A stretch of 64,000 bases of DNA, taken from Naegleria gruberi. Its lineage: Eukaryota. A program made the position numbers and the translations under genes. Position 1 is the first letter of the stretch; each line of letters opens with the position of its first letter. A model generated the notes under the pieces. That model saw only the letters and a list, made by a program, of their open reading frames with translations. It ran no database searches and had not been told where the DNA came from. Below, one piece after another: positions 1,554 through 57,819 of this stretch. The stretch lies in NCBI GenBank assembly GCA_000004985.1, contig GG738876.1, one strand, 5' to 3'.

Positions 1554-2867
1554 ATGGAAAAGCAAGAAGAAATAGAAATTACAAACAATAACTTTGATTC
1601 GGAGGAGAGAATGGATCAACGAATGGATCAAGGGAAGGAAGGAATGGCTGATCATTATGGTTCTAGTGAAGATGAAGATACATTGTCTGATCAGTTGGTT
1701 GTTGAAGATGAAGAAGAATATGCTTATTATGATTGGGAAACGGTTGGATCTTCCTTACAAAATCAAGAAGAGGAACTAATTGATTTGTGGATGAGAATTA
1801 ATGATGCCTTTTCCGATAGGAAGAAATCCCTTGTCAACAAGTTTCAAGGAATTTCTAATAATTTGAAAAGAGAATTGGAAAATCAAAAGTTACAACTCAA
1901 ACAAAAGAAGGAAACATTAGTAAGGGAAATGAATCAGCCAGAGAATGTCAAGACCAAGGACAAGTATGCATTTACAATTGGTGTTTTGATTATGGTTTCT
2001 TCAACTTTCCTCTTGGCAAAATATCCCTACCTATTACCAGATTATTACATTGTAATGAGTGTAATTCTGATGGTGATTAGATTCTTTCACTATCATGGAA
2101 TGGGATTCCACTACTTTATGTTAGATTTTTGCTATTTGGCCAACTTTATCTTGATCTTTTATTTGGGATTTTATACAAACAGTCCTCACCTGTTTTTACT
2201 GAACTTTGTAAACAGCAGTGGACCTCTTGCAATTGCCATTGTAATGTGGAGAAATTCATTGGTATTTCATTCGATTGAAAAGGTAACTTCAGTCTTTATA
2301 CACATCTTCCCAGCCATTGTAACATTTGCGTTGAGGTGGTTAATGTTTAATGACAACACTCAAACACCAAAAATTATAACACCAATTGGGGAGAGCTACT
2401 CTATTTGTGTCAATGAAGATTGTTATGTATCATTGGTTGACATTTACGTACCTCACATTTGCTTATTCATATTTTGGCAATTAAGCTATACAATCAAGAC
2501 ACATTTCCTTGACAGAGAATATCTACAAAAACAAAATAATATTCAAACCAGCTACAATTACCTTATCAAGTCTAAAGCGTTCATTCAAACATTGAGTGAC
2601 AAGTTGTATGGAAAGGAACATAGACTTTTAGGATTCATTTCTTTACAATTTTTATTTCATATGTGTACTTTGATTCCTATAAAATTTATGTTTGACCATT
2701 TTTGGGTTCATGTGGCTGTGTTGACAAGTGTATTCTTGGTTTCTGTTTGGAATGGAGCCAACTTTTACTTTGAGAGATTTGCAAAGGTTTATCTTCATGA
2801 CTTGAGAAAGATGGCAGAAAAATTGGAGATGGAAAACAAAGAACAAACTTCAGCAATCACTCAATGA
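1554..2867 (+). CDS. polytopic membrane protein, DUF2838/Gpc1 (glycerophosphocholine acyltransferase)-like
   Basis: 437-aa ORF from ATG 1554. Acidic N-terminus, then about 8 hydrophobic helices, with an HYHGMGFHYFMLDFCY motif that I recall as typical of DUF2838. Assignment is from memory of the family signature. Confidence 0.4.
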   Translation: MEKQEEIEITNNNFDSEERMDQRMDQGKEGMADHYGSSEDEDTLSDQLVVEDEEEYAYYDWETVGSSLQNQEEELIDLWMRINDAFSDRKKSLVNKFQGISNNLKRELENQKLQLKQKKETLVREMNQPENVKTKDKYAFTIGVLIMVSSTFLLAKYPYLLPDYYIVMSVILMVIRFFHYHGMGFHYFMLDFCYLANFILIFYLGFYTNSPHLFLLNFVNSSGPLAIAIVMWRNSLVFHSIEKVTSVFIHIFPAIVTFALRWLMFNDNTQTPKIITPIGESYSICVNEDCYVSLVDIYVPHICLFIFWQLSYTIKTHFLDREYLQKQNNIQTSYNYLIKSKAFIQTLSDKLYGKEHRLLGFISLQFLFHMCTLIPIKFMFDHFWVHVAVLTSVFLVSVWNGANFYFERFAKVYLHDLRKMAEKLEMENKEQTSAITQ

Positions 2868-13854: not shown

Positions 13855-15183
13855 ATGAATCATCTTAAACGATTGATTGTTTTGGCTCTTGTAGTTGTAC
13901 TCATGTTTGTCGTCTCACTTTCACATGCTCAAGACGAACAACAGGAAAACAACAATAAGAGACCACCAAGACCTTTACCTTCAGGTAGACCACCAAGACC
14001 ACATCCAGATCATTCTGGAGGGCGACCACCTCGCCCATTCCCATCTGGAGGAAGACCACCACGTCCAGATCATTCAGGAAGAAGACCAAGACCAGATCAT
14101 TCTGGTGAGAGACCACATCCACCAGGTCCACAACCAGATCATTCAGGAAGAAGACCACCAAGACCTGGTCCACATCCTGGTCAATCAGGATTACCACCAC
14201 GTTCTGATGAACAAGATGGTCAAAGTGAAAATAGACCTCGTCCACCAAGACCTCATCCAGAACGTTCAGGTGAAAGACCACATCCAAGACCTTTCCCATC
14301 TGGAGGTAGACCACCAAGACCAGACCACTCAGGAAGAAGACCAGGTCCACATCCAGATCATTCTGGAAGACCACCTCGTCCACATCCAAGACCAGAACCA
14401 TCTTCTGAAGATGACGAACACTCTGATAGACTTGAACAAGGAAACAGACCTCGTCCACCAAGACCAGATCGTTCAGGTTTGCCACCTCGTCCATTCCCAT
14501 CTGGAGGAAGACCACCAAGACCAGATCATTCAGGAAGAAGACCACATCCAAGACCTGAACACTCTGGTGAGAGACCACATCCAAGACCAGCTCACTCTGG
14601 TGAAAGACCACCAAGACCAGATCATTCAGGAAGAAGACCAAGACCAGGTCCACAACCAGACCAATCGGGAAGACCACCTCGTCCTTATCCAGAACATTCT
14701 GGTGAAAGACCAGGCCCACGTCCTCAACCACAAGAATCAACTTCATCCTTAATAGGTGAAAGACCACCAAGACCTGATAGATCTGGAAGACCACCTCGTC
14801 CATTCCCATCTGGAGGCAGACCACCAAGACCAGGCCCATCTGGAGGAAGACCAGGTCCTGGACCAGGTCCACAACCTGATGTTTCATCTGTTGAAGATCC
14901 ACTCATTGATGCTCAAAATAATACCAAGAATGAAATTCCAAATGGACCATCCAATGGTTCTGATGCTTTGGCCATTGTCTTTGGTGTTATTGGTGCAATT
15001 GTTGTCATGGCTGCTATTGCTCTTGTCATTGGAAGTGGAATTGCTGTTTTTGTTTTGAAGAAGAAGGGTTATTCACTCTCATTGAAGAAACATCAAATGT
15101 TGAGAGATGAAGACGAATTTGAATATCCACAACAAGACCAAACTCCAATTTACTCTGTCAATCAACCAGTTGCTCAAAATTAG
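13855..15183 (+). CDS. type I membrane protein with a Pro/Arg-rich tandem-repeat ectodomain (GRPPRPDHSGRRP-type units)
   Basis: Signal peptide MNHLKRLIVLALVVVLMFVVSLSHA, then more than 20 imperfect repeats of RPPRPxPxHSG(E/R)RP. Near the C-terminus is a TM (LAIVFGVIGAIVVMAAIALVIGSGIAVFVL) followed by KKKGY and a roughly 40-aa tail. Confidence 0.6.
   Translation: MNHLKRLIVLALVVVLMFVVSLSHAQDEQQENNNKRPPRPLPSGRPPRPHPDHSGGRPPRPFPSGGRPPRPDHSGRRPRPDHSGERPHPPGPQPDHSGRRPPRPGPHPGQSGLPPRSDEQDGQSENRPRPPRPHPERSGERPHPRPFPSGGRPPRPDHSGRRPGPHPDHSGRPPRPHPRPEPSSEDDEHSDRLEQGNRPRPPRPDRSGLPPRPFPSGGRPPRPDHSGRRPHPRPEHSGERPHPRPAHSGERPPRPDHSGRRPRPGPQPDQSGRPPRPYPEHSGERPGPRPQPQESTSSLIGERPPRPDRSGRPPRPFPSGGRPPRPGPSGGRPGPGPGPQPDVSSVEDPLIDAQNNTKNEIPNGPSNGSDALAIVFGVIGAIVVMAAIALVIGSGIAVFVLKKKGYSLSLKKHQMLRDEDEFEYPQQDQTPIYSVNQPVAQN
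13960..14880 (+). repeat. about 39-nt imperfect tandem coding repeats (Pro/Arg-rich) within the 13855..15183 gene
   Basis: Recurring ggaagaccaccaagaccagatcattcaggaagaagacca units. They produce the artefactual track ORFs 13895..14752(+) and 13901..14902(-). Confidence 0.6.
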
Positions 15184-15579
15184 GTTCAATTTAAGTTTTT
15201 CAAAGATTATCGAGCGATAATAACACATTAATTTGCACTACTCTAAAGTGTGCATTCTCTCCTTGTGAGTACAAATTTACAAAATAAATACATTATTTCA
15301 TTGGTAAATTGATTGGTCTGAAAACTTAATTGTAATCTTTCCTTTATTAAAATCTCAAAGTAAAATTCCAACATCATCAATTTAAAAAATTGTCGTTAGA
15401 GCTCCTTCTCTTTGTTCATCATCATCAGTAATAATAATACTTGTGCGTTGAGAAGAATTGTTCTTTTGGTGGATCATCACAATTTGACTTGAGGAATTTA
15501 AATTATCTTTCACAAACAATTCAACGTTTTGATTAAACCTATTGCTTTTTTGTATATTTGTGGAACATTAGGTATTAGG

Positions 15580-17409
15580 ATGAAGAATAGTTATTCCACA
15601 TCAACGAGTGGTGGAATTTTATATAGTTCCGAATTTATTCAAGTTAATTTAGCTGCTGATGCAAAGGGTGATGAAGAAAATGGTTTTCAACCCAAGGCTG
15701 CATGTGTCTCTTGTAGAAAGCTACATCGTCGATGCTCAAAGGAATTTCCGAAATGCTCTGAATGTGTTACTCATCACAGAAAGTGTATTTACATGGATAC
15801 AAAAACAAAAGAAAGAAATCTAGCCTCATCATCATCAACAGATCGCACTACTAGTAGAGATAGTAGGGGTAATAACCAGAATAATAATAACAGCAAACGA
15901 TCAATGAGGAGAGCAGCGTCTACAATTGAAGAACCTCAAATTGCAATCACAGAGGGACTAATTAAGAAAAGTATCAAGAGACAAACGTTCAATGTCTATA
16001 TGGACTTGGTTTGTATGGGACTACCATTCATTACCCCTCAAAATTTTGAAAACATGCTCTTTTCTGAGAATATTCTGAATCAAAACACTAATGCAACCAG
16101 TATTAAGGCATTATTTCTATCAATACAGTCATTGTGTGATCAACGGTTTGGAAGAAGGGATGCTGCTATTGCTGCCTTCAATGAAGCAAAAAGTGAGCTA
16201 CATCAAGTTTTTGAAGATTACGATAACTATCTAAATATTTGTACATATAATAATTTAGCTTACTTTTCTGGTGCTGAGGGAGAGGATCAAATGTCACAAT
16301 GGTTCATGTCACCAGTAGAGTATTACCTATCAAAATATTCTGAATTGAATTTTAATTCCCATAACGAGCTGATAGGACTTGCCTTTGAAAATTTGAACAA
16401 AGGGAGTGGAATAACTAAATTATTTTATTTTGATAATAGATACAAATGGACAAGTCTCACTTTTGGAGATTATATAGGAATACCTTTCAAGTTATCTACT
16501 GGGAAAAGATTACCTCCTGAATTGAAGCAATTGGTGGATCGTGATTTGAATGAAAACACAGCACAAGCTGAGTCAGCAGTTCTTCAATGCATTCTTCAAT
16601 TTATGAAACAACACCATCAAAAGCTTGTGCATTCACCTGGTTTTCTCAACTTGTCTCGCATAGTGGATGTATCTAGTTTTACCAAAACAAGAATAGAATC
16701 ACTCCGAGTACTCTATTCAAAAGCAAATAGCCAAGAAAAGAGAGAGTTATTTTTCAAAGAAATGCTCAATCTTGCAAATACGACTACTGAACTAAGCAAG
16801 GATGATCTATTCCCATACATTTTACCTACCAATATTTTTGGTTTTGCTCTAGCTGCAGAAATTCATTTGGAAGCATTGTCTAATTTTTCTCATTTAGTAT
16901 CTGTTAGCGAAATTTTAGGGCATCTCAAACAAGATTTCCTAGCCCTTACTGTCCTTGCAAGGAAATATGGAAGAGTGCAGAAAGTTTATGGGTACATCTA
17001 TGATGAAATTCAGTCGGTATTGTTAAATAATGGAGTTCCTGCTGAAGAGTTATTGAACCTCATTTCTAATAATTCATTCAAAACACCATCTACCCCTAAA
17101 TTATATCCCCCTATTACTGTAAATAATCAAACCCATACAATTTCTCCCACCAACAACTCAACAGATCAAGTTATAACTTCTGAAAACTCTTCGCCCACTT
17201 CTGAAAATGTATCAAAGAAGAAGGATTTTCCATCGGCAGCTTTTCTTAATAATACGCTTCGTAATTTCAAGAAAACAATTTCCAACCAAGAAATTTGCAC
17301 GATAACTCCTCGAAGTTCTACAACATCAGATAGCCCAATTAATGAGGAAGAAATATCCTGCTTGAAAAATCAAACACTCTCAATACTGCAACAAACATTT
17401 TCAAAATAA
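15580..17409 (+). CDS. GAL4-type Zn(II)2Cys6 binuclear-cluster transcription factor
   Basis: ACVSCRKLHRRCSKEFPKCSECVTHHRKCIY has the CX2CX6CX5-6CX2CX6C spacing, followed by a basic/N-rich linker and a long helical middle-homology-like region. The true ATG is at 15580; the track begins at an upstream TTG. Confidence 0.75.
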   Translation: MKNSYSTSTSGGILYSSEFIQVNLAADAKGDEENGFQPKAACVSCRKLHRRCSKEFPKCSECVTHHRKCIYMDTKTKERNLASSSSTDRTTSRDSRGNNQNNNNSKRSMRRAASTIEEPQIAITEGLIKKSIKRQTFNVYMDLVCMGLPFITPQNFENMLFSENILNQNTNATSIKALFLSIQSLCDQRFGRRDAAIAAFNEAKSELHQVFEDYDNYLNICTYNNLAYFSGAEGEDQMSQWFMSPVEYYLSKYSELNFNSHNELIGLAFENLNKGSGITKLFYFDNRYKWTSLTFGDYIGIPFKLSTGKRLPPELKQLVDRDLNENTAQAESAVLQCILQFMKQHHQKLVHSPGFLNLSRIVDVSSFTKTRIESLRVLYSKANSQEKRELFFKEMLNLANTTTELSKDDLFPYILPTNIFGFALAAEIHLEALSNFSHLVSVSEILGHLKQDFLALTVLARKYGRVQKVYGYIYDEIQSVLLNNGVPAEELLNLISNNSFKTPSTPKLYPPITVNNQTHTISPTNNSTDQVITSENSSPTSENVSKKKDFPSAAFLNNTLRNFKKTISNQEICTITPRSSTTSDSPINEEEISCLKNQTLSILQQTFSK

Positions 17410-28520: not shown

Positions 28521-29047
28521 TGTGATTGGTAAAGGATTGAATATTCTTGATCTCTGTTTCAATTTTCGTTCAAACTTGCACCTCATCTCCCATTTTCCTT
28601 GAAATTCAATTGTTCGGAGATGAGTGGGAGTTATTAATTGAAAATTCCGCAGTAGTAAGCACAATCTGTTCACAAGTCCATTACTTCTCCTCATGAAATC
28701 ATCAATTAATATTGAAAATTATTTGGATGTAGATATTGCAATTTCCTTCGTGTTCTCCATCTTTATTTCTCTGTGCATTATCAAAAACTACACACAGGTG
28801 CGCCCAATGATTGATCAATATTGAACCTTTTTTCATTCCTCCCACACGTGTGTGCTCCCTATCAATCATTAAGAGCATCAACATGATCCATTCAACAAAT
28901 GCAAGAGAGGCTCTCTTGAAAATTTTGGCGCGCAACTAAAATCTATGTGATTGTGTATTTGAGACTGATGGGAAGATGCTTTGAAAAAATATCTTTTTAA
29001 AATAATTTTAAATAAATTATTGTTGAAGAAAATTGATTCTAGAAAAA

Positions 29048-32017
29048 ATGTCTTCGTACGGAACGCACGGCGATGGTGGAGATGGGTTGGAATCGAGTAA
29101 ACAACTCAATGTGCTCCAAAAGATTGCTAGAAATAGAGTGGTGAATATTGTTGGTGCGATAATATTATCAATTATTTTATTATTGAGTATTGGATGTTGT
29201 GTTGTTGTTGGTGTGCTTCATTCACATTTGCTTTTCCAATGTGGATTTGCTGAATTTATATTTATGTTACTTCTTGAAGGCGCTACATTCTTCTTCTGTA
29301 TTTATCACTTGTACAATATTTACAAGTTTTTCAAGACTAGAGCACGACACTCTGGTAAGAAGGGAATTTCCGCTATTGTTGCTGCTTTATGTTCATCAGA
29401 AGTAAATCAATACAATGCATATTCTGATTCCAGACAAGGAAATGAAGAAGATGATTTTGATGATGAAGAAGATGATGAAGATGACGAAGAAGAGGAGGAA
29501 GAAGAAAGCAAATTTTCCAAGTTTGTTGTCGGCTTTTTGAAGATTGCTGCCAATGCTATTGCTGTTTTATGTTTCATCATTTTGGTACTTTTCACAGTTG
29601 TTGTCGTTCCATTGCAACAACAAACCTACCCAACTTATAACGGTACTCTTAAACTTCCAAAGTTTACACCAAAGGGATCTTCTGCTCCTACAATTTCACG
29701 TGAAAGTAATGGTGTTGTTCACATCAAGGCTTCACACGATTATGATTTATATTTCGCACAAGGTGTAGCTGTTGCTCAAGATCGTTTGTGGCAATTGGAA
29801 TTTAATCGTAGATTGTCAAATGGTATTTTGGCTGAAGTTGCTGGTGCTGATGCTGTCAATGTTGACAGTTGGTTCAGAACTCTCGGATTTGCTCGTTCTG
29901 CTGCCAACATTTTACCAACCATTGATGCTGAAACTCTTTCATTCATTCAAGCATATTGTGATGGTATTAACTCTTATATTAATAGTAATCCACCACTTCA
30001 ACCTGAATTTGTTCTCCTCAACACTAAACCAGTTGAATGGACTCCAAGTGATGTTATTGCTTATATGAAGTTTGTTTCATTCTCTCTTTCTGATAATATG
30101 GAAAAGGAAGTTTGGAGATTCAAGATGATGCAAAGAAATATCACAAAGGACAGAGTTAACGAATTGGTTCCTTTCTACCCAACTGATATGCCAACTATTT
30201 TGAGTTTGGAAGAAATGAATTTGCAAAACGTTCCAGTTGAAGAAAGAGAAAAGATTGAAAAGGCTCAACAAGATGATTCTGCTGCTTTTATTCCAAAGGC
30301 TATTCACAATTTGACCATGTCTGTCATGGAAGAAATGTTCGCTTCATTGGAAGAATCTGGTGAATGGGGTAAACAAGCTGTCAGATCAGTTTTGAAGGGT
30401 ATGGTTGCTCCAGATATCACTGGTAACAAGGCCTCAAACAATTGGGTTCTCGGAACCAAGATTACAGCAAACAATGGATCATTGTTGGCTAACGATCCTC
30501 ATTTGGATTTGACTGCTCCAGGTATTTGGTATTTGGCTCATTTGGAAGGTCCAACTCACAATGTTATTGGTTCTACTTTTGTTGGTCTTCCAGGTATTGT
30601 TATTGGTAAGAATGATTTCATTTCATGGGGTGTTACTACTGGTCTTGTTGATGCTCAAGATTTGTACGTCATGTCCGAAGTTGAAGAAGGTAAAACTTAC
30701 AACTACAATGGTAAAGTTCTCCAATATGAAACTCGTACCGAAACTATTAATGTTAAGGGAGCTGCTGCCAAGACTATTACTGTTAAGGAATCTGTCTACG
30801 GTCCAGTTATTAATGACCACTACCAAGTTGATGGTAACGTTTTGTGTTTGAAGTCTTTGACTACCTACACTAATGATACCACACTCCAAGCTTTCCTCAA
30901 GTTGAACAGAGAAGCTAAGGATTGGAACTCATTTGTTGATGTTGTCTCCTTGTTCGTTTCCCCATCCCAAAACTTTGTCTTTGCTGACAAGAGTGGTAAC
31001 ATTGGTTACTATTTGGCTGGTTTGGTTCCAATTAGAAAGGAAGGTCACAATGGTAGATTCCCAGTTATTGGTGATGGTAGCTATGATTGGCAAGGATTTA
31101 TTCCAGCTGCTGAAAAGCCAAGCGTTTACAATCCAAAGAAGGATTACATTGCTTCTGCAAACAACAGAGTTACTCCTGTTGGTTACAAGTACAGTATTAC
31201 CCAAGATTGGTACTCTTTCTATAGAGCTAGCAGAATTGTCTCATTGATTGAAACTGCTATTGAAAAGGGAACTCCACTCAATTTTGAATACATGAAGAAG
31301 ATGCAACACGACGTTCACTCACCAGTCTTTGATCAATTCAAGTTTGTTTTTGAAGCTATTCCAAAGTTCAGAAATCTCACTGAAAATAAGGAAAAGTTGA
31401 GAGAAAAGTTGATTAATTGGGACGGTGATGAAATTTTGTACTCTCAATCTGCTTCCATCTTTGAAATGTGGTACAAGATTATGGGTAACCTCACCAAGGT
31501 TGAAACTGTCAATAGATGGTCTTTCGGTCCATATCTTTACAATGCCTTGAAGAATGGTGATAGTGCTTGTGAAAATTATCACAACACTACTTGTATGTTG
31601 TTCGCTATTGACAGCTTTGAAAATGCCATTGATGCTCTTGAAGCCACTTACGGTTCTATTCCATTGTGGGGTTCTGATATTCACGAATCTGAATTCCCTA
31701 ACCCGGTAATGGATAATACTGTTCTCAAATGTTTGGCTGGAGCTACTCGTACTACTGTTGGTGGTTCTTCAACCATTAATGTTGGTGAAACTCAATATCC
31801 TGCCCTCAATTCAAGATGGGGTGTTTCTTATAGACAAGTTGTTGATTGGCGAGGCAATCAAGCTTCATTCATCATTCCACTCGGTCAATCTGGTAACTTC
31901 TTATCTCCTCTTTACACCAACTTGTTAGAAATGTGGTCTGACCCAACTGGTCAATACTTGGACATGAAATCTGCTGGTTACACTGCAACCAATACCCTTT
32001 CTCTTTCCTCTCAATAA
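29048..32017 (+). CDS. penicillin amidase / N-acyl-homoserine-lactone acylase family Ntn-hydrolase with an N-terminal 3-TM anchor and an acidic (D/E) loop
   Basis: Family motifs ...GNKASNNWVLGTKITANNGSLLANDPHLDLTAPGIWY (Ser nucleophile at the start of the beta-subunit, SNxW) and downstream segments conserved with PvdQ/PGA. The N-terminus has three hydrophobic helices flanking EEDDFDDEEDDEDDEEEEEEE. 990 aa, single exon. The true ATG is at 29048. Confidence 0.8.
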   Translation: MSSYGTHGDGGDGLESSKQLNVLQKIARNRVVNIVGAIILSIILLLSIGCCVVVGVLHSHLLFQCGFAEFIFMLLLEGATFFFCIYHLYNIYKFFKTRARHSGKKGISAIVAALCSSEVNQYNAYSDSRQGNEEDDFDDEEDDEDDEEEEEEESKFSKFVVGFLKIAANAIAVLCFIILVLFTVVVVPLQQQTYPTYNGTLKLPKFTPKGSSAPTISRESNGVVHIKASHDYDLYFAQGVAVAQDRLWQLEFNRRLSNGILAEVAGADAVNVDSWFRTLGFARSAANILPTIDAETLSFIQAYCDGINSYINSNPPLQPEFVLLNTKPVEWTPSDVIAYMKFVSFSLSDNMEKEVWRFKMMQRNITKDRVNELVPFYPTDMPTILSLEEMNLQNVPVEEREKIEKAQQDDSAAFIPKAIHNLTMSVMEEMFASLEESGEWGKQAVRSVLKGMVAPDITGNKASNNWVLGTKITANNGSLLANDPHLDLTAPGIWYLAHLEGPTHNVIGSTFVGLPGIVIGKNDFISWGVTTGLVDAQDLYVMSEVEEGKTYNYNGKVLQYETRTETINVKGAAAKTITVKESVYGPVINDHYQVDGNVLCLKSLTTYTNDTTLQAFLKLNREAKDWNSFVDVVSLFVSPSQNFVFADKSGNIGYYLAGLVPIRKEGHNGRFPVIGDGSYDWQGFIPAAEKPSVYNPKKDYIASANNRVTPVGYKYSITQDWYSFYRASRIVSLIETAIEKGTPLNFEYMKKMQHDVHSPVFDQFKFVFEAIPKFRNLTENKEKLREKLINWDGDEILYSQSASIFEMWYKIMGNLTKVETVNRWSFGPYLYNALKNGDSACENYHNTTCMLFAIDSFENAIDALEATYGSIPLWGSDIHESEFPNPVMDNTVLKCLAGATRTTVGGSSTINVGETQYPALNSRWGVSYRQVVDWRGNQASFIIPLGQSGNFLSPLYTNLLEMWSDPTGQYLDMKSAGYTATNTLSLSSQ
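29441..29506 (+). repeat. GAA/GAT (Glu/Asp) trinucleotide-rich coding microsatellite within the acylase gene
   Basis: gaagaagatgattttgatgatgaagaagatgatgaagatgacgaagaagaggaggaagaagaa. It also yields a poly-Ser antisense ORF (29407..29595) in the track. Confidence 0.6.
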
Positions 32018-32195
32018 TTTAAAGTCATTATTAAATAAATAATCTAGTTTGTATATATTTACTGTTGTTGTTAATATGAAAGAAGCGTTTCTGTGGCGAA
32101 ATTCAACATCTTCAACTGGATTCACTGAGGTTTGATCATTGTCACTTTTCAATATCTTCCTGAAAAGGGCACAAACTAAAGTTGAAAAAAACAAA

Positions 32196-33590
32196 ATGAC
32201 CAATGCCAGTTCTTCCACAACACGAACAACAAGTGCAAGCTACAGACAGCAAAAATTGAAAAGTAAACAAATAGATAATCAACTGTACGGAAATTTATCA
32301 GCACAACTTGTCTCCACCAACAACAATCAGCTCCAACTTGAACAATTACAAAAAACAACGAGACCTCTTCGAATATTATTGATGGGACCAAGAAATTGCG
32401 GAATTAAAACCTTTCTAATGAATGCTCTTGATATGGAAGCTGATGATTTCATGATTCGAACCATGTTATCAATGTCTCATAGAGTGAATCAAATTTCGAA
32501 TAGTAATCTTGCTGGACTTGATGATACAGAACTTACACGTCCATTGACTTTTCAACAAAAGGCAGAGGGTCTCTTTTCAGAGAAGAATAGAAATCTGACG
32601 CTCAATGTGTACATGTATATTTGTAGAGGAATCAAAGTTTTTGTAAAATGGGAATGGAAATATTTTGAAAGATTGAAGAGGAAAATTCATGAAAATTATG
32701 AACATCATCATTATCATGAGGAACATTTTGATTTGGTTTATAATTGGGAAGGTGACGAAGATGGTAAATTATTGGATGAGTTGATAAATGATTGTCGAGA
32801 GCAGAAACAATTGAATTCCAAAATTATTTCAATTTATTCCAAAATTGTGAATTATGGAAAAAAGGAAGTAATGAACGAATTTTACAATTCATTATTAAGA
32901 TCGACAAATATTAGATATTTGGATAATATTCAATAGTATGTTTGTCATAAGTTCAAATTTCATTCAAAAAATTTCAGTTTTTTCACACTTGATGCTTTCA
33001 ATAGAATTACTTCCAATGATTACAAGCCACTCAACCAAGATTTGCTCAAATCTCATCATCCAGACGATAAGGGAATTATTTCAATTCGGAGGGATGAGTT
33101 TGAATTTATTGACATTACAGGTCAATTGAATGAAAGAAGAAAGTGGATTCATCAATTTTCCAACTCTATTGATGTTATAATGTTCTTCATTCCAATTTCA
33201 GATTACAATCTAATCAATCCACTGACTGGAATGAATAGACTTGATGAGGCTTTTCATTTATACAATGAAATTCAAACAACGAAACTTTTTGAGAGAGCTG
33301 ACATTTCAATCATGTTAACAAAAATGGATTTGTTTAAAAAGAAACTAGTTTTGGATCCAATTTCGAATTATTTTGAAAAGTTTCAAGCGTCGAATGGAAA
33401 TTTAAAAGAAACTATGGAAGTGATGAGAGGAATATTTAGTCAAAATTTTGGGGAAGATTCGAATTATAGGAGACTGTTTGTGCATCAGGTTGATTTGACT
33501 GATGTGAATGATTTTAAAGTGGTTTATAGAGGAATTTCCAGTTCTCTTCGATTGGGAACTTTCATTTCAATTTTTGCTAGAAGGAGATGA
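32196..33590 (+). CDS. heterotrimeric G-protein alpha-subunit-like protein with degenerate nucleotide-binding motifs, at least 2 exons (32196..32935 and 32978..33590)
   Basis: Exon 2 aligns to the G-alpha switch/Ras-like region: DDKGIISIRRDEFEFIDITGQLNERRKWIHQFSNSIDVIMFFIPISDYN...RLDEAFHLYNEIQT...ISIMLTKMDLF. The 42-nt intron gtatgt...tttcag joins LDNIQ|YFFTLDAFNRITSNDYKPLNQDLL. However, G1 is GPRNCGIKT (not GxGxxGKS), the switch-I Thr is absent, NKxD is replaced by TKMD, and there is no MG myristoylation N-terminus. Confidence 0.65.
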
Positions 33591-33613: not shown

Positions 33614-35056
33614 TTATTGAGAATTTTGATGTTTCATAACCAAACCATGAATCTTTTTAACTCTCATTTCCTTGAGGAATTCCATCGAAAGTTTGAACCT
33701 GTAATGAGAATCCAACATTACAATTTCAATTTCCTTCTCCAAGAAATCAAACAAATCGTCTGGAAGCGACGAAATTTGACGATTCTTATACAATTCAATT
33801 TGAAACAAAACATCATGTGTGGACTTCTTATCAATATTTACAGATTTAGGGCCATTAACATTCAGGAATTCTTCATATATTTCCTGAGCTAATTGGAATT
33901 TCTTTGCTTCAACAACTTCTAATTCAGTTTCGAGTTCTTGAGTAGTTGAAAGATTTTTCTTTCTCTTGGTTGTTGGTTGACCAACACTGAGAGAAGTATT
34001 GGATTTGGAAGACTGATCAACAACAGAGATGGTGGAAGGAGTTGCGTTATTGGAAACTTCAGATAATTCGAAAGAAACGCTACCTAAACTATTAGAACTT
34101 TCAGTTTCTTCACTCAATGTTTGAACCAATTCAATTTGATATTCACACAATCGCTTGTACTGCTGAACTTTTTCAAGGAATTCAAAGTTTTCAGAGTTAA
34201 ATTCCTTCTTACAATGATTCTTAAAGAGATTTCTCAATCTGTCATTATTCATGGTGTGTGAAATGTCAACTGCTAGTGCTTCTCTTAATTTTTGAACATT
34301 GTTGGAGTCTGATCTAATAGCCAACCCAAAAACAAAGATAATGACTGGAACTGTAACTACAACTGCCAAGCAAATAATTGATAATGAAGTTATGGACATA
34401 GCATTAGTGATTTTTGACACTTGTTCTTGAGAAGCAAGTACATAATCAAGTACAACATCTTGTGCAGTTCTAAAAGTGTTTCTTCTTGCGATATAAGTGG
34501 CGGAAGTAAGCAATCGAACAGCTTCCGTAAAGTTTCCATCTCTAATATTCGAAACAGCTTGAGAATCAGTATCAGTCAAATAATTAACAATTCCCTGCAA
34601 ATTATTTCTATACTGCTGCGAAATACTCTGAGGTATCTTTTGAAGCATATTTTCAGTCAACTCATCATTCACTTTCGAATAATTATTATAATAAGCCAAA
34701 TATCCCTCATTTCCCGAATAGGCAGCCACCAACGTATAAGCTTGAATATAGGCAGTATACGTAGATACCTTCGCTCTAGTAGCCAACAAATCAATATCCT
34801 CATTCATCTGACTATTTTCACTATAAATCAGCAAACCAAGGAGAATGAGGAAAGTAATGGTATTGAGGACCATGGCAACCATTGCAAAGATTTTAATGAA
34901 ATTCAATTCGAGTTTGAAGAAACAGCAGTGGACTGTGAAGGTTTTTGGCTGTTTTTGATGTTTACGAAAGGAATCGTCGAGAGAGGATTGCTGGCGTTTG
35001 AGAGGAGGTGAAGATTCAATGCTTGTTTCGATTGGTTTCTTTGTTTCGTTTTCCAT
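33614..35056 (-). CDS. membrane-anchored RGS (regulator of G-protein signalling) domain protein, 2 TM helices plus a C-terminal RGS domain
   Basis: The C-terminal half contains FKNHCKKEFNSENFEFLEKVQQYKRL...AQEIYEEFLNVNGPKSVNID...FQIELY...VMLDSHYRFKLSMEF, which matches the RGS box. The N-terminal part has two TM helices (FAMVAMVLNTITFLILLGLLIY and SLSIICLAVVVTVPVIIFVFGLAI) flanking a roughly 150-aa loop. Single 480-aa ORF. Confidence 0.75.
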   Translation of the reverse strand: MENETKKPIETSIESSPPLKRQQSSLDDSFRKHQKQPKTFTVHCCFFKLELNFIKIFAMVAMVLNTITFLILLGLLIYSENSQMNEDIDLLATRAKVSTYTAYIQAYTLVAAYSGNEGYLAYYNNYSKVNDELTENMLQKIPQSISQQYRNNLQGIVNYLTDTDSQAVSNIRDGNFTEAVRLLTSATYIARRNTFRTAQDVVLDYVLASQEQVSKITNAMSITSLSIICLAVVVTVPVIIFVFGLAIRSDSNNVQKLREALAVDISHTMNNDRLRNLFKNHCKKEFNSENFEFLEKVQQYKRLCEYQIELVQTLSEETESSNSLGSVSFELSEVSNNATPSTISVVDQSSKSNTSLSVGQPTTKRKKNLSTTQELETELEVVEAKKFQLAQEIYEEFLNVNGPKSVNIDKKSTHDVLFQIELYKNRQISSLPDDLFDFLEKEIEIVMLDSHYRFKLSMEFLKEMRVKKIHGLVMKHQNSQ

Positions 35057-47805: not shown

Positions 47806-49994
47806 CTAACGAGTATGTAAAAATCTGTGAGGATGATTTCTCTTGGTTTCTTCATAAACTTCCAAACAAAATCCAACATGCATTTGAAGGTGAAGATATC
47901 TTCTGTGTAAAAGTGGTGACCTCTCTGTCATTTGTTTGAGGTTTCTCAGGTCTTGATAGAGATATTGAGCGAGCTCTTCTACGTAATCATACAATAAATT
48001 AATGCTTGGATCATTTAGTAGATTGGATAACACATCATAGTGAATCTTGGCAGCAACTTCAACTGAGTAAATAACAGGGAGTTGGCAATACTTGAAAAAT
48101 GGTAATTGGGTTACCTTGGTAATTTCATTGGCGGCAGAGGTTATATCTGCCGAAGAAGATATTCTGTACTTGTGTTGTTTGAATAGAATCAAAGCTTTAA
48201 CTCCAAGACAAACAACAAGGAATGTGTAGGTACGATCAGAATTCATACTTGAAAATACCTTCACAATCATGTCCAATTTTGTCATTATTTGTTGAACTGG
48301 TTCTTCCAAGCTGAAAAGTTGTGGCCTTCCAGAGTGGGACATAATAGATGACCTAAGTTGGTTGAATGTAGGACTGCTCACAGCAGTATTGAGACACGCA
48401 ATGTGCTTCTCAACAACAAATTTAGAATACTCATCAAAATCTAAAATGTCACCAAATGTCAAATTGTTGACAATTTTCTTATTAATTGCATCAATCTCAC
48501 TTTCCACAACATCTGTTAGTGAGGATAATTAGAAAATTAATAACCAAAATTTAACAACATACCACTCAAATAGAATAATTCTGAAACACATAGACCTTGT
48601 CTAATAAAACTACAATGTTCATCCATGTCCTTTTCTCTTTCTTTCAAATACCATGTGCAAATAGAATAGAAATATTTGGATCTTGCCACACAATCCAAAT
48701 AACATTTAGAGTTGGCTGCTTTTGAACATGCTGTGGCTGAAGAACATTTGGATGGACTTTTGCATTCAGCACTCAATAGATAGTATGCCATCAACGTGTA
48801 CGTATAAATGACAGAACTGTCATTGGTTTGATCGAAACACTTGGAAATGTGATCTCTTCCCTTCTCGAAAAATATTTTAGCAAATCCCATATTACCAATC
48901 CTGAAGAATGAAATAGCATGCATTAAAAACAAGAATGCCAGCTTGGAGTTTCCTAGGGGCTCTCTAGGGTCAATCTTGTCTTCCAGCTCGCTCTCTAGGT
49001 CAGTTTTTCCTGTAATAGAAACACTGAGCCAATACATTAATTCATCTCTGTTGGATGGTGGGACCATAGAATAGGAAAGACTCTTATACACATCTAATGA
49101 AATATTGTCAAAATATTTTCTATCAAGCTCAATTTGTCGTAAGTTATTGAGATAGGCTCTTTCATTGATATACCTTGATTCTCTTTTCACTGGAATTGGA
49201 ACTGATGGAGGTGATTCCTTCCTTTTGGATATTGTTTTGCTCTTTCTCTCAGTAATTACAGATGAGTCATCAACAAATTGATACTCTACAACACCTGTCA
49301 ATGAATTATTCGAATTTAGTATGGTTTTTGGACCTCTTTTTCTTGCTTGAGCATAAACACATTGCTTTTGTGAACGTAGACAATTGGAGCAACCAGGATA
49401 AGCCACACGGTCACACTTTTTGTGATTCAACTTGCAAAAGATACAAGCATTATTCATCAATACAACATCTACATTTGTTGATTGAGCTGTTATTGAATCT
49501 ATATTTGAAGGACTTGTTTTATCACATGAATTAGAGGCTTTAGAAGATGCTGTAAATGTTGATGAACTCTCGGATGAGTTGTGTACAAGTAAACCTGTAT
49601 TCAGCATTGTGAATGGAGTATTTACCTGTGTAAGATTGAAGAAGTGATCAGTTGTATTGTTGGTAGTGTTTGTTGGTAATGTTGGAGTCTTCTTCTTCGT
49701 ACTTACAAAGGCTGGATTGAAATTGTTTTCCATTTGATTATTACTCCTCATCACATCACTTGATGAAGTGGCTGATGAGGTTGCATGATGATTAGATTGT
49801 TGCGCCATCATTTGTGTGATGTTATTGTTGGAGAACATGTTTTGTGAATTAAATAAGAGGTTTGAGCCAACATTAGGAAGAGTCACCCTTTCGCTCTGAC
49901 CAGTCCAGGAATTTGTCTGTTGGCATGTTGACGAAGAAGGCTGCTGATGCAAGTTCAAATTAAATTGCTGATGTTGTTGTTGATGATGTTGCAT
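47806..49994 (-). CDS. GAL4-type Zn2Cys6 transcription factor with a poly-Gln/Asn N-terminus, 2 exons (48563..49994 and 47806..48512). It is a tandem neighbour of the 44288..47623 gene.
   Basis: ACIFCKLNHKKCDRVAYPGCSNCLRSQKQCVYAQARKRGPK. A 50-nt intron (gtatgt...taacag) joins ...ELFYLS|DVVESEIDAINKK. The true ATG is at 49994; the track starts at an upstream TTG. Confidence 0.75.
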
Positions 49995-50557
49995 TATCAA
50001 AGGCTTCCGAAATGTGTGTTGATAACGATGAAAAATCTAATGGTGAACACCTCCTAAAAGATATATTAACAAATCGCAAGATGCAGCTGTATGCAGATTC
50101 GCTTTTTTAGAGAGAGGTACAGCTGATGAGAGCAAGAGAGCTTGGAACTTGTATTTTTTTGTTGGAAATCGCCGTTACTCTCGTGGCCAGCAACTCCATG
50201 CTTTGTGTCAGATTGTATCTGAAAATTTCACTATTTTGGAGTTTGAAAGGTGAGATTCAATTTTTTTAAGAGATAAAACAGACGCTTCGTTAGGTTGAAA
50301 TACAATACTAAAAAAGATCTTTTTTTTTTATATAAAACAAAAACTTGGTGAACCGAGTTTTTGAATTATCGACAATTGTATTCAATGTTTGAATAGGAAT
50401 TAACTTTAACGTGAGATATTCCATATTGGAATCAAAGTTATGTTATTATTGGTGATCAAGCTCATTATGAAAAGAATTCTTAATTAGCAACCATTCCAAG
50501 CTAATAAGTTGCCAAGTTGTGATCGAAATTTAGGAGTTTATTGATTTTCGATATGAA

Positions 50558-51077: not shown

Positions 51078-51150
51078 CGCCCCACGTGGGGCTCGAACCC
51101 ACGACCGTTGGATTAAAAGTCCAACGCTCTACCGACTGAGCTAGCGGGGC
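51078..51150 (-). tRNA. tRNA-Lys (anticodon UUU)
   Basis: The minus-strand read GCCCCGCTAGCTCAGTCGGTAGAGCGTTGGACTTTTAATCCAACGGTCGTGGGTTCGAGCCCCACGTGGGGCG folds as a cloverleaf. It has a 7-bp acceptor stem, D-arm GCTC/GAGC, anticodon loop CTTTTAA, and T-arm GTGGG-TTCGAGC-CCCAC. 73 nt, no intron. Confidence 0.9.
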
Positions 51151-56306: not shown

Positions 56307-57611
56307 TTATACTCTACTAAGCCAAATATCACTCTTACCAACTCCATTGATAATAAATCTGGCTATTTGATCGTAGGTTGGATTGATAAAGGTTTGGGAA
56401 GGAGCTCTCTTAACGAAAAATCCCCAAACATAACGAGGCTCTTCCAAAACTGTTATTTTGTTAAAACCTGCTTTCATCAAAGCTCCCAAAACATTCAAAG
56501 TATATCTGGTAATTTCCACAACAGTATTATCAACGAGTGGGAGTAATTGTTTACCACCTTCAATCACAGATCCTTCATTTCCTTCAACATCAATTTTAAG
56601 AATTGTAATTCTCTTCTGTTTTTTAATGTGCTCACTGAATGCATCATCCAAGGATACTGATAATATTTGATCATTTGAAACTGTAGTACTCTCAAATGCA
56701 TAGGCAGATCCCTTATTTTGATCATCTCCATATCCAAATGAGAATGATTTACCAGAAACCTATATTACATCCAAAATTTAATTTCCACATTGCAAAATGT
56801 TAAATAATTGTGAATAAATAGATGAATTATTGCTAAAACTTACACTAGTTACAGCATTATTATGGACTTGAATATTCTTAAATCCATTAATTGTAGCAGA
56901 AGCTTTAATTCTCTCAACCATTTCAGGTTGAACTTCAAAAGTAGAAACTTGACATCCATAAGCTGCACTCAACAAGGAGAAGAATCCTAAATTTCCACCC
57001 ACATCAATCATATTACACTCAACATTTGGTTTCTTGAATACGTCATCCAACACTTCCTCAAATGTTTTTTCAATAGCACTTTCCCACCATCCTCTACGAA
57101 CTAATTGATTAGAAATCCAAACATCACTCTTCGGAGATAGTGTCAAAATCAAGAATGAAGGATTTGTATTCGTCTTGACCAAATACAAACTCTCCTTATT
57201 CTTATTAGCATAGACTGGACCTGCCATCTCTACGGCCCAATCAGGTCCATTATACACATAAATAAACCATCTCAATATGAACAAAATTATAAAAACAATT
57301 AATAGGAGAATGAATAATCCCTTTCGAGTACAGAGCAAACTTCTCAACATGCCTCCAATCCTACGCGGAAGTGTTGATGTTTTAATTTGATCGTATTGTC
57401 TTGTTGATGATGATGATACTGATGAAAAACTCTCGGAACGTTGTGTTGATGATGACGGCATATTCTTTTCAATATCGAAAAGTTCATCACCGACATGTTG
57501 TTGTTGTTGTTTGGAGTGATTCTCATCATCCGTATTGGTGTAATTATTCTGATGAGGAGGGTTGTTGTTGGATGATGATGGGGTGATGGTAGAGTTTCGT
57601 TGTTGCAACAT
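56307..57611 (-). CDS. FkbM-family SAM-dependent methyltransferase with an N-terminal type-II signal anchor, 2 exons (56844..57611 and 56307..56759)
   Basis: TM LFILLLIVFIILFILRWFIYVY after an N/Q-rich cytosolic head. FkbM motifs MIDVGGNLGFFSLLSAAYGCQVSTFEVQPEMVERIKASATINGF...NNAVTS|VSGKSFSFG...ILKIDVEGNEGSVIEGG. An 84-nt intron (gtaagt...aatatag) restores the frame. Confidence 0.7.
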
Positions 57612-57746: not shown

Positions 57747-57819
57747 TGGAGATGCGGGGTATCGATCCCCGTACCTCTTCCATGCTAAAGAAGCGCTCTA
57801 CCATGTGAGCTACATCCCC
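57747..57819 (-). tRNA. tRNA-Ala (anticodon AGC)
   Basis: The minus-strand read GGGGATGTAGCTCACATGGTAGAGCGCTTCTTTAGCATGGAAGAGGTACGGGGATCGATACCCCGCATCTCCA has the G3:U70 Ala identity pair, anticodon loop TTAGCAT, and T-arm ACGGGGATCGATACCCCGC. Confidence 0.9.

What the first reader, a model, noticed from the sequence alone, without database searches (positions are those of the whole stretch)
32196..33590. G-alpha-like protein with degenerate GTP-binding motifs (candidate pseudo-GTPase)
The protein aligns well with the G-alpha switch region (DITGQLNERRKWIHQF versus DVGGQRSERKKWIHCF). It has lost the canonical P-loop: GPRNCGIKT instead of GAGESGKST, which inserts one residue. It also lacks the switch-I Thr of RVKTTGI, has TKMD in place of NKKD, and has no MG myristoylation start. 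The catalytic Gln of DxxGQ is retained. Either GTP binding is atypical or the protein acts as a nucleotide-independent scaffold.
Basis: partly seen in the sequence, partly recalled or inferred. Interest (0 to 1): 0.6.

Follow-up and report, generated by a model that had tools for sequence, protein, structure and literature searches.

The report
Divergent Naegleria G-alpha, likely pseudo-GTPase
This is a real, two-exon Naegleria gruberi gene for a very divergent G-protein alpha subunit that has lost the residues needed to hold and split GTP; public annotation cuts it off at its intron, so it has not been recognised as a G-alpha, although G-alphas of this degenerate kind are already known.

Summary
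The window is Naegleria gruberi NEG-M. Positions 32196-33590 (+) encode a 450-aa protein from two exons joined across a 42-nt GT..AG intron. It matches Pfam G-alpha at E=1.4e-41. The nucleotide pocket is degenerate: P-loop GPRNCGIKT (Lys46->Ile, Ser47->Lys in Gαi1 numbering), arginine finger ->His, switch-I Thr ->Asp, G5 TCAT->VDLT. DxxGQ and the Asp of TKMD are kept. Two reader details need correcting. There is no P-loop insertion, and TKxD is an allowed G4 variant. The gene is not a pseudogene: a 44%-identical metagenomic homologue shares the derived motifs, the C-terminal tail and the intron position and phase, and evolves at dN/dS 0.21. It groups with other Naegleria-type G-alpha-likes that all lack the arginine finger but mostly keep a normal P-loop. 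The public model (246 aa, 'predicted protein') stops inside the intron and has no Pfam hit, so domain censuses probably miss it. The best reading is a GTPase-dead, probably nucleotide-free G-alpha that acts through its conserved switch II and C-terminal surfaces, like the plant XLG 'decoy' G-alphas. Deviant G-alphas in Naegleria are already noted in the literature, so this is a new member of a known kind.

The parts
32196..32935 (+). Exon 1 (aa 1-246 plus 2 nt). Contains the N-terminal helix, β1/P-loop/α1 and an enlarged helical domain. It is identical to the public 246-aa model P0163.
32244..32285 (+). αN signature RQQKLKSKQIDNQL (compare Gαi1 ERSKMIDRNL). There is no Gly2 and no Cys for lipidation upstream.
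32385..32411 (+). Degenerate P-loop GPRNCGIKT (aa 64-72): Gly42->Arg, Glu43->Asn, Lys46->Ile70, Ser47->Lys71, Thr48 kept.
32936..32977 (+). 42-nt phase-2 intron, GTATGT...TTTCAG. If unspliced, a TAG follows codon 246 at once. Position and phase are conserved in the 44%-identical homologue (L005, 40-nt intron).
32978..33590 (+). Exon 2 (aa 247-450 plus TGA): the rest of the Ras-like domain. It is absent from the public protein set. On its own it scores Pfam G-alpha 2.9e-36.
33039..33080 (+). Switch I region DLLKSHHPDDKGII (aa 268-281): Arg178->His273, Thr181->Asp277, Thr182->Lys278, Gly183 kept, with a one-residue insertion.
33111..33161 (+). G3/switch II DITGQLNERRKWIHQFS (aa 292-308). Asp200, Gly203, Gln204, Arg208, Trp211 and His213 equivalents are kept. 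This is the best-conserved segment of the protein.
33318..33329 (+). G4 TKMD (aa 361-364). Lys and the guanine-specificity Asp are kept; Asn->Thr is an allowed variant.
33489..33503 (+). Degenerate G5 VDLTD (aa 418-422) in place of TCATD, with Ala326->Leu420. Relatives share this state (VNLTD, VDLTD, VNLCD, VNITS).
33543..33590 (+). C-terminal tail SLRLGTFISIFARRR plus stop. The homologue has the same pattern and the same end point (TLKLGNLYTMFAKQRQ*).

Best explanation
Positions 32196-33590 hold a functional, lineage-specific paralogue of the heterotrimeric G-protein α subunit in Naegleria gruberi. The fold and the partner-binding surfaces are retained: the αN signature, switch II, the Arg208/Glu245/Arg242 switch II-III residues, and a conserved C-terminal tail. 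The nucleotide pocket has lost the P-loop Lys and the Mg-binding Ser, the arginine finger, the switch-I Thr and the G5 Ala.

Inference: the protein cannot hydrolyse GTP, and it most likely binds Mg·GTP very weakly or not at all. It would then act without a nucleotide cycle, as a constitutive binder (a decoy or scaffold) of Gβγ and/or of receptor or RGS-type partners, as the plant XLG 'decoy' Gα does. It has no lipid anchor of its own.

My step probabilities: Gα family paralogue, about 0.97. Maintained by selection rather than a pseudogene, about 0.85. GTPase-dead, about 0.8. Essentially nucleotide-free in vivo, about 0.55. Gβγ decoy/scaffold as the specific mode of action, about 0.35.
For: Family membership. 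Pfam G-alpha 143 bits; PDB Gα chains at about 1e-21; a local HMM built from 37 canonical Gα plus GNAI1 gives 2e-42.

Pocket loss. Among the 150 nearest relatives out of 1.84 billion representatives, position 46 is Lys in 88/88, position 47 is Ser/Thr in 87/88, Thr181 is Thr/Ser in 145/146, Arg178 is Arg in 137/146, and Ala326 is Ala in 112/128. This protein has Ile, Lys, Asp, His and Leu at those positions.

Retained elements. D292, G295, Q296, R300, W303, N333, R334, E337, K362 and D364.

Selection.
- A 44%-identical homologue (P0002/P0160/P0161) keeps an open frame.
- It shares DISGQ, TKLD, V/INLTD and the same C-terminal tail and stop.
- It has an intron at the same codon and phase.
- Two variants of that homologue differ by 13 synonymous and 12 non-synonymous changes, giving dN/dS 0.21, binomial p=3e-4.
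- A second N. gruberi-like contig (L002, 99.5% identical) keeps the frame and an identical intron.

Clade. This protein groups with P0160, P0050 (N. lovaniensis XP_044544303.1), P0068 and P0007 at 99% NJ bootstrap. All share a one-residue deletion after 'SDYN' and all lack the arginine finger.

Precedent. XLG2 has Lys46->Ala, no arginine finger and Ala326->Gln. It binds GTPγS 100-1000 times more weakly than canonical Gα yet binds RGS1 and Gβγ normally (bioRxiv 10.1101/795088).
Against: - No biochemical, expression or structural data could be obtained.
- The P-loop sequence rests on one assembly. L002 starts at 32775 and does not cover it.
- Retention of DxxGQ, the G4 Lys/Asp and the switch II/III ionic residues could mean that some nucleotide-dependent switching persists. 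Lys71, next to the lost Lys, might partly compensate.
- The P-loop state of the nearest homologue is unknown, because its contigs end before that exon. The Lys46 loss may therefore be recent.
- Thr182->Lys would probably disturb canonical RGS docking.
- NJ clustering of long branches can be an artefact.
Confidence: 0.6

Rival explanations
1. It is an atypical but still nucleotide-regulated Gα. It binds GTP or GDP through a non-canonical P-loop, for example with Lys71 and Thr72 taking over, and either stays locked GTP-bound (hydrolysis-dead) or switches with unusual kinetics.
For: DxxGQ with the catalytic Gln, the G4 Lys and Asp, Thr48, and the Arg208/Glu245/Trp211 equivalents are all kept. Clade relatives P0068 and the L003 gene keep a canonical GxxxxGKT P-loop despite degenerate G2, G4 and G5. 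N. fowleri Gα1 tolerates an unusual P-loop with only slower hydrolysis (PMC9283941).
Against: Ile sits at the invariant Walker Lys position (88/88 Lys in relatives). Both Mg ligands are lost (Ser47->Lys, Thr181->Asp). Ala326->Leu is expected to crowd the guanine, since even A326S weakens binding. The clade alignment shows no insertion that would put Lys71 into register.
Confidence: 0.25
2. It is a decaying or functionless duplicate within the very large Naegleria Gα expansion, on its way to becoming a pseudogene.
For: Several core motifs are degenerate. The closest annotated relatives are only about 30% identical. No close orthologue appears among annotated N. lovaniensis or N. fowleri proteins (only 2 hits below 1e-30). 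The 5 differences from L002 are 3 non-synonymous to 2 synonymous, which is uninformative.
Against: The 450 codons are intact and the splice sites are intact in 32% GC DNA. A 44%-identical homologue conserves the motifs, tail, stop and intron phase, and evolves at dN/dS 0.21. Switch II is strongly conserved.
Confidence: 0.1
3. The public annotation is right. The product is the 246-aa exon-1 protein, and the downstream G-alpha-like ORF is an untranslated relic.
For: The public model P0163 is 246 aa and ends at the TAG formed at the intron start.
Against: The Pfam match runs as one stretch across the junction. Exon 2 alone scores 2.9e-36 while P0163 alone has no Pfam hit. The intron position and phase are conserved in the homologue. 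The exon 2 frame, tail and stop are conserved.
Confidence: 0.04

Closest known systems
Canonical heterotrimeric Gα subunits (Pfam PF00503; e.g. Gαi1, Gαo, Gαt structures 1GIA, 3C7K, 1GOT)
   Same: αN helix signature; a Ras-like domain with an inserted helical domain; DxxGQ; switch II ERRKWIH; NR..E in α3; [NT]KxD; overall 26-33% identity over the Ras-like half.
   Different: Lys46->Ile, Ser47->Lys, Gly42->Arg, Glu43->Asn, Arg178->His, Thr181->Asp, Thr182->Lys, TCAT->VDLT. No myristoyl or palmitoyl site. The segment between the P-loop and switch I is about 200 aa against about 130 in Gαi1, and contains a His/acidic-rich stretch. The C-terminus is extended and basic.
Plant extra-large G proteins (XLG2, the 'decoy' Gα)
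   Same: A Gα homologue lacking the P-loop Lys, the arginine finger and the G5 Ala. XLG2 is shown to be nearly nucleotide-free yet to bind Gβγ and RGS (10.1101/795088; PMC8584482). This is the best functional analogue.
   Different: Independent origin (Heterolobosea versus plants). No Cys-rich/NLS N-terminal extension. This protein keeps DxxGQ with the catalytic Gln, which XLG2 has lost. Nothing has been measured for it.
Naegleria-type divergent Gα clade: N. lovaniensis XP_044544303.1 (P0050) and metagenomic P0068, P0007/L003, P0002/P0160/P0161
   Same: The shared derived characters are:
- a one-residue deletion after SDYN;
- a [TS]G.N motif;
- loss of the arginine finger;
- a V[DN][LI][TC] G5;
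- TKxD-like G4.
NJ bootstrap for the clade is 99%.
   Different: P0068 and the L003 gene keep a canonical GxxxxGKT, and P0050 keeps Lys46 (GKKT). Only this protein has Ile at position 46. P0050 is not syntenic with it. Identity is 27-33%, or 44% to P0160.
Characterised Naegleria fowleri Gα1-7 (PMC9283941)
   Same: Same genus and the same expanded signalling system (13 Gα, more than 100 RGS proteins). P-loop variation there is already known to tune kinetics (Gα1 'TAQ').
   Different: Five of the six N. fowleri subunits tested were activated by GTP or GppNHp and the sixth (Gα6) only by AMF, so all six showed activation. The P-loop variation reported there concerns only Gα1 residues 23-25 (TAQ). 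The present protein lacks the Walker Lys.

Membership tests
Gα subunit family (Pfam PF00503) | Significant match to the family profile above the curated cut-off | tested here: met
   143.2 bits against 48.8, E=1.4e-41, aa 127-433 on profile positions 49-329. A local canonical-Gα HMM gives 2e-42.
Gα subunit family (Pfam PF00503) | Architecture: αN helix, then β1/P-loop/α1, then a helical-domain insert, then switch I to α5 | tested here: met
   KSKQIDNQL (αN), RILLMGPRNCGIKTFL (β1/P-loop/α1), a helical region about 200 aa long, then a colinear match to the C-terminus. The AF2 single-sequence model of exon 1 was too poor to add anything.
Gα subunit family (Pfam PF00503) | G1 P-loop G(A/T/Q/P)G(E/D)SGK(S/T) | tested here: not met
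   GPRNCGIKT: Ile at the Lys position and Lys at the Ser position.
Gα subunit family (Pfam PF00503) | G2/switch I arginine finger and Mg-binding Thr (RxxTTG) | tested here: not met
   HHPDDKG: Arg178->His, Thr181->Asp, Thr182->Lys.
Gα subunit family (Pfam PF00503) | G3 DxxGQ with the catalytic Gln, and the switch II Trp | tested here: met
   DITGQ...RRKWIH.
Gα subunit family (Pfam PF00503) | G4 (N/T)KxD | tested here: met
   TKMD. Thr is an allowed variant and occurs in 9 of 150 relatives.
Gα subunit family (Pfam PF00503) | G5 (T/S)CA(T) with a small Ala | tested here: not met
   VDLT, with Leu at the Ala326 position.
Gα subunit family (Pfam PF00503) | N-terminal myristoylation or palmitoylation site | tested here: not met
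   The protein starts MTNASS and has no Cys before residue 68. An in-frame stop lies 61 nt upstream, and there is no room for another exon.
Gα subunit family (Pfam PF00503) | GTP binding and hydrolysis; Gβγ, receptor and RGS binding | not testable with these tools
   These need recombinant protein assays.
PseudoGTPase (GTPase fold without a catalytic or nucleotide cycle) | GTPase-fold homology together with loss of catalytic or nucleotide-binding G-motif residues | tested here: met
PseudoGTPase (GTPase fold without a catalytic or nucleotide cycle) | Maintained by selection, not a pseudogene | tested here: inconclusive
   The homologue lineage has dN/dS 0.21 (p=3e-4), and the intron, tail and motifs are conserved. 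The direct test on this gene has only 5 differences, and there are no expression data.
PseudoGTPase (GTPase fold without a catalytic or nucleotide cycle) | Measured absence of nucleotide binding or hydrolysis | not testable with these tools
   No assay was possible.
Plant XLG proteins | N-terminal Cys-rich/NLS extension fused to a Gα-like domain, plant lineage | tested here: not met
   No such extension is present and the organism is a heterolobosean amoeba. The resemblance is functional analogy only.

The most novel reading that the evidence does not exclude
This would be a naturally 'empty-pocket' Gα that arose independently of the plant XLGs, inside a heterolobosean clade that records stepwise conversion of a Gα into a pseudoenzyme. 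In that series the arginine finger is lost in all members, G4 and G5 erode in most, the Mg-binding Ser is lost in N. lovaniensis P0050, and the Walker Lys is lost only here. The protein would work as a lipid-free constitutive Gβγ or receptor decoy that tunes the very large Naegleria G-protein network.
Probability: 0.3. Interest if true: 0.55.

Novelty: new member of a known kind. Interest (0 to 1): 0.35.

Why it matters
Naegleria has one of the largest Gα repertoires known. A review reports 44 in N. gruberi and says some have deviant catalytic motifs (PMC8584482).

This gene is mis-annotated. The public model is a 246-aa 'predicted protein' that is truncated at an unrecognised intron and has no Pfam hit. 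HMM-based censuses of the annotated proteome would therefore miss it.

If it is nucleotide-free yet functional, it would be a second, independent case beside the plant XLGs of a Gα turned into a nucleotide-independent decoy. Its relatives would offer a graded natural series for studying how the Gα switch is dismantled.

The practical result here is a corrected gene model and a concrete candidate for biochemical testing.

Tried and rejected
1. A word-indexed search with the full 450-aa protein returned nothing. It also missed the 99%-identical fragment P0001, so that result is not evidence of absence. Separate exon queries worked.
Only exon 2 could be searched, so relatives' P-loops had to be read from their full sequences or contigs.
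3. The AF2 model of exon 1 (P0163, single sequence) gave pLDDT 42 and is uninformative. No fold search was run.
4. A dN/dS test against L002 has only 5 differences and no power.
5. Contigs of the nearest homologue (L001, L004, L005) end before the P-loop exon.
6. The JGI metagenome scan returned only two distant, 45% GC Gα genes with introns, L006 and L007.
7. Anantharaman et al. 2011 (PMC3396428) is not held. Its content is cited only through PMC8584482.
8. A functional link to the adjacent RGS gene was considered and set aside. The two genes are convergent, RGS genes are very numerous in Naegleria (108 in N. fowleri), and the homologue's contig L004 has no RGS neighbour.
9. The first bootstrap script timed out. 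The second had saturated distances. The corrected run is.
10. No second Gα-like gene was found in the window.

Full report
**Source and gene model**

Exact look-ups of neighbouring ORFs identify the window as a 397-kb scaffold of Naegleria gruberi NEG-M. For example, 33617-35056(-) is NAEGRDRAFT_69095 and 1554-2864(+) is NAEGRDRAFT_69080. The window is 32-35% GC almost throughout.

The finding's coordinates are right. An ATG lies at 32196, an in-frame TGA at 32133-32135, and the preceding penicillin-amidase gene ends at 32017. Removing a 42-nt GTATGT...TTTCAG intron (32936-32977, phase 2) joins two long open frames into a 1353-nt CDS of 450 aa.

The intron is well supported.
- The Pfam G-alpha match is a single stretch (aa 127-433) that crosses the junction.
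- A scan of the window for GT..AG introns that join at least 120 open codons on each side finds this one on the + strand. It also finds similar short introns at 48513-48562(-) and 56760-56843(-).
- The intron is identical in a 99.5%-identical metagenomic contig, L002.
- A 44%-identical homologue has a 40-nt GTAAGT...AG intron in the same codon and the same phase, directly before the conserved 'FF' (L005).

**Annotation status**

The spliced protein is not in the 15-billion-protein collection. A search with exon 1 returns P0163, the public N. gruberi 'predicted protein' of 246 aa. That model is exon 1 read into the TAG at the intron start. A search with exon 2 returns only a 136-aa metagenomic fragment. 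P0163 has no Pfam hit at E<=0.01, whereas exon 2 alone scores 2.9e-36 for G-alpha. The G-alpha nature of the gene is therefore invisible in the public annotation. By inference, the gene is missing from domain-based counts.

**Family and motifs**

Pfam G-alpha scores 143.2 bits against a cut-off of 48.8, E=1.4e-41. The best solved structures are Gt/Gi/Go α chains at about 1e-21. I built a local HMM from 37 canonical Gα sequences plus human Gαi1 and aligned the protein to it.

| Motif | Sequence here | State in Gαi1 numbering |
|---|---|---|
| G1 (P-loop) | GPRNCGIKT | Gly40 and Gly45 kept; Gly42->Arg; Glu43->Asn; Lys46->Ile70; Ser47->Lys71; Thr48 kept |
| G2 (switch I) | DLLKSHHPDDKGII | Arg178->His273; Thr181->Asp277; Thr182->Lys278; Gly183 kept |
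| G3 (switch II) | DITGQLNERRKWIHQF | Asp200, Gly203, Gln204, Arg208, Trp211 kept |
| G4 | TKMD | Lys270 and Asp272 kept; Asn269->Thr |
| G5 | VDLTD | Thr324->Val; Cys325->Asp; Ala326->Leu420 |

Among the 150 nearest relatives from a HMMER scan of 1.84 billion representatives, the substituted positions are almost invariant. Lys46 is Lys in 88/88. Ser47 is Ser/Thr in 87/88. Thr181 is Thr/Ser in 145/146. Arg178 is Arg in 137/146. Ala326 is Ala in 112/128.

Two reader details need correcting.
- The P-loop has no insertion. The alignment is ungapped, and the distance from the first Gly to the following Phe is the same as in the clade relatives GSANSGKKTF, GSSGSGKTSF and GMHGSGKTTF.
- TKxD fits the (N/T)KxD consensus.

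**Relatives**

Only two representatives score below 1e-30.
- P0001 is 99% identical and comes from L002.
- P0002 is 44% identical. Its cluster members P0160 and P0161 sit on L001, L004 and L005, which are JGI and ENA metagenome contigs of 35-39% GC.

This homologue shares DISGQ, TKLD, V/INLTD, the switch II block, an equally degenerate switch I (QDILGSYHQD...), and a C-terminal tail with the same stop position (LKLGNLYTMFAKQRQ* against LRLGTFISIFARRR*). Two variants of it differ by 13 synonymous and 12 non-synonymous changes, which gives dN/dS 0.21 and binomial p=3e-4. The lineage is therefore under purifying selection. Its contigs end before the P-loop exon, so its P-loop state is unknown.

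More distant relatives share a one-residue deletion after 'SDYN', a [TS]G.N motif, loss of the arginine finger and a degenerate G5.
- P0050 is N. lovaniensis XP_044544303.1, with GSANSGKKT, DPNEQ, TKSD and VNLCD.
- P0068 has GSSGSGKTS, DTSGQ, THID and VNITS.
- P0007 and the L003 gene have GMHGSGKTT, DPSGQ, TYVD and VDLTD.

In an NJ tree of 161 columns and 43 sequences, these five form a clade with 99% bootstrap, and this protein pairs with P0160 at 86%. Long-branch attraction is a caveat. P0050 is not syntenic with this locus. Within the clade, only this protein has lost the Walker Lys.

**Mechanism**

What is shown: Gα homology, loss of the named residues, and retention of switch II, the α3 residues and the tail.

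What is inferred: without Lys46, Ser47, Thr181, Arg178, the Glu43-Arg178 pair and a small residue at position 326, Mg·GTP binding should be very weak and hydrolysis absent. Arabidopsis XLG2 has Lys46->Ala, no arginine finger and Ala326->Gln. It binds GTPγS 100-1000 times more weakly than canonical Gα but binds RGS1 and Gβγ with normal affinity, and it is proposed to act as a decoy (10.1101/795088; PMC8584482).

The strongest conservation in this protein is in switch II, which is the Gβγ, effector and RGS face in established Gα structures. The C-terminal tail is also conserved. This fits a nucleotide-independent partner-binding role, and I rate it the most likely mode. The main rival is residual or locked nucleotide binding, because DxxGQ, the G4 Lys/Asp and the Arg208/Glu245 equivalents persist and some clade members keep a normal P-loop.

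**Comparison with what is known, and novelty**

A review states that N. gruberi has about 44 Gα subunits. It also states that deviation of catalytic motifs, and lack of N-terminal tethering residues, occur in some Gα of Dictyostelium, Naegleria and plants (PMC8584482, citing Anantharaman et al. 2011).

N. fowleri has 13 Gα and 108 RGS-domain proteins. Of the six N. fowleri Gα tested, five were activated by GTP or GppNHp and Gα6 only by AMF (PMC9283941).

The phenomenon is therefore known. This gene is a new, mis-annotated and unusually extreme member, the only one of 88 comparable sequences lacking the Walker Lys. Interest is moderate.

**Limits**

There are no expression data, no usable structural model and no biochemical data. 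The AF2 model of exon 1 had pLDDT 42. The P-loop sequence rests on one assembly.

Noticed in passing
window 33614-35056 (-): The neighbouring gene NAEGRDRAFT_69095 encodes a 480-aa protein. By eye it has two hydrophobic segments flanking a putative extracellular region. It has a C-terminal RGS box (Pfam 2.1e-08) that keeps the SEN and VN(I)D Asn signatures. It is tail-to-tail with the Gα-like gene, with the stop codons only 23 nt apart, so the 3' ends probably overlap. The adjacency is not conserved on the homologue's contig L004.
   Followed up: partly
window 32196-32936 (+), public model P0163: The public N. gruberi gene model is truncated at an unrecognised 42-nt intron. The same kind of error may hide other Gα or other genes with short introns in this genome.
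   Followed up: partly
window 29033-32017 (+): A 994-aa penicillin-amidase-family protein (Pfam 8.7e-180) with an N-terminal hydrophobic and acidic extension. It is a bacterial-type enzyme in an amoeba and may have been acquired horizontally.
   Followed up: no
window 13855-15183 (+): A 442-aa ORF with a signal-peptide-like start, many Pro/Arg-rich repeats of about 10 aa (GRPPRPDHSG; DNA periods 27-42) and a C-terminal transmembrane segment. The locus has raised GC (41%), a long antisense ORF and no Pfam hit.
   Followed up: partly
window 15529-17409 (+) and 48537-50000 (-): Two proteins with the 'fungal' Zn(2)-Cys(6) binuclear cluster domain. The second appears to be joined to 47806-48507 by a 50-nt GTATGT...CTAACAG intron (48513-48562).
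   Followed up: no
window 51078-51150 (-) and 57747-57819 (-): tRNA-Lys(UUU) and tRNA-Ala(AGC) genes.
   Followed up: no
L005 279-320 and L004 about 279-315: The 44%-identical homologue has a second short intron (GTAGGT...TAG) directly before DISGQ, which N. gruberi lacks. In L005 it is in frame and was translated by the metagenome gene caller, giving the spurious 'GRFTLRNIPTLLF' in P0160.
   Followed up: partly
L007 409-1083 (JGI metagenome contig, 45% GC): An unrelated Gα-like gene that also has degenerate motifs (DQAGSHRARDW, TKMD, LNLFD). This suggests that pocket-degenerate Gα homologues arise repeatedly in different eukaryotes.
   Followed up: no
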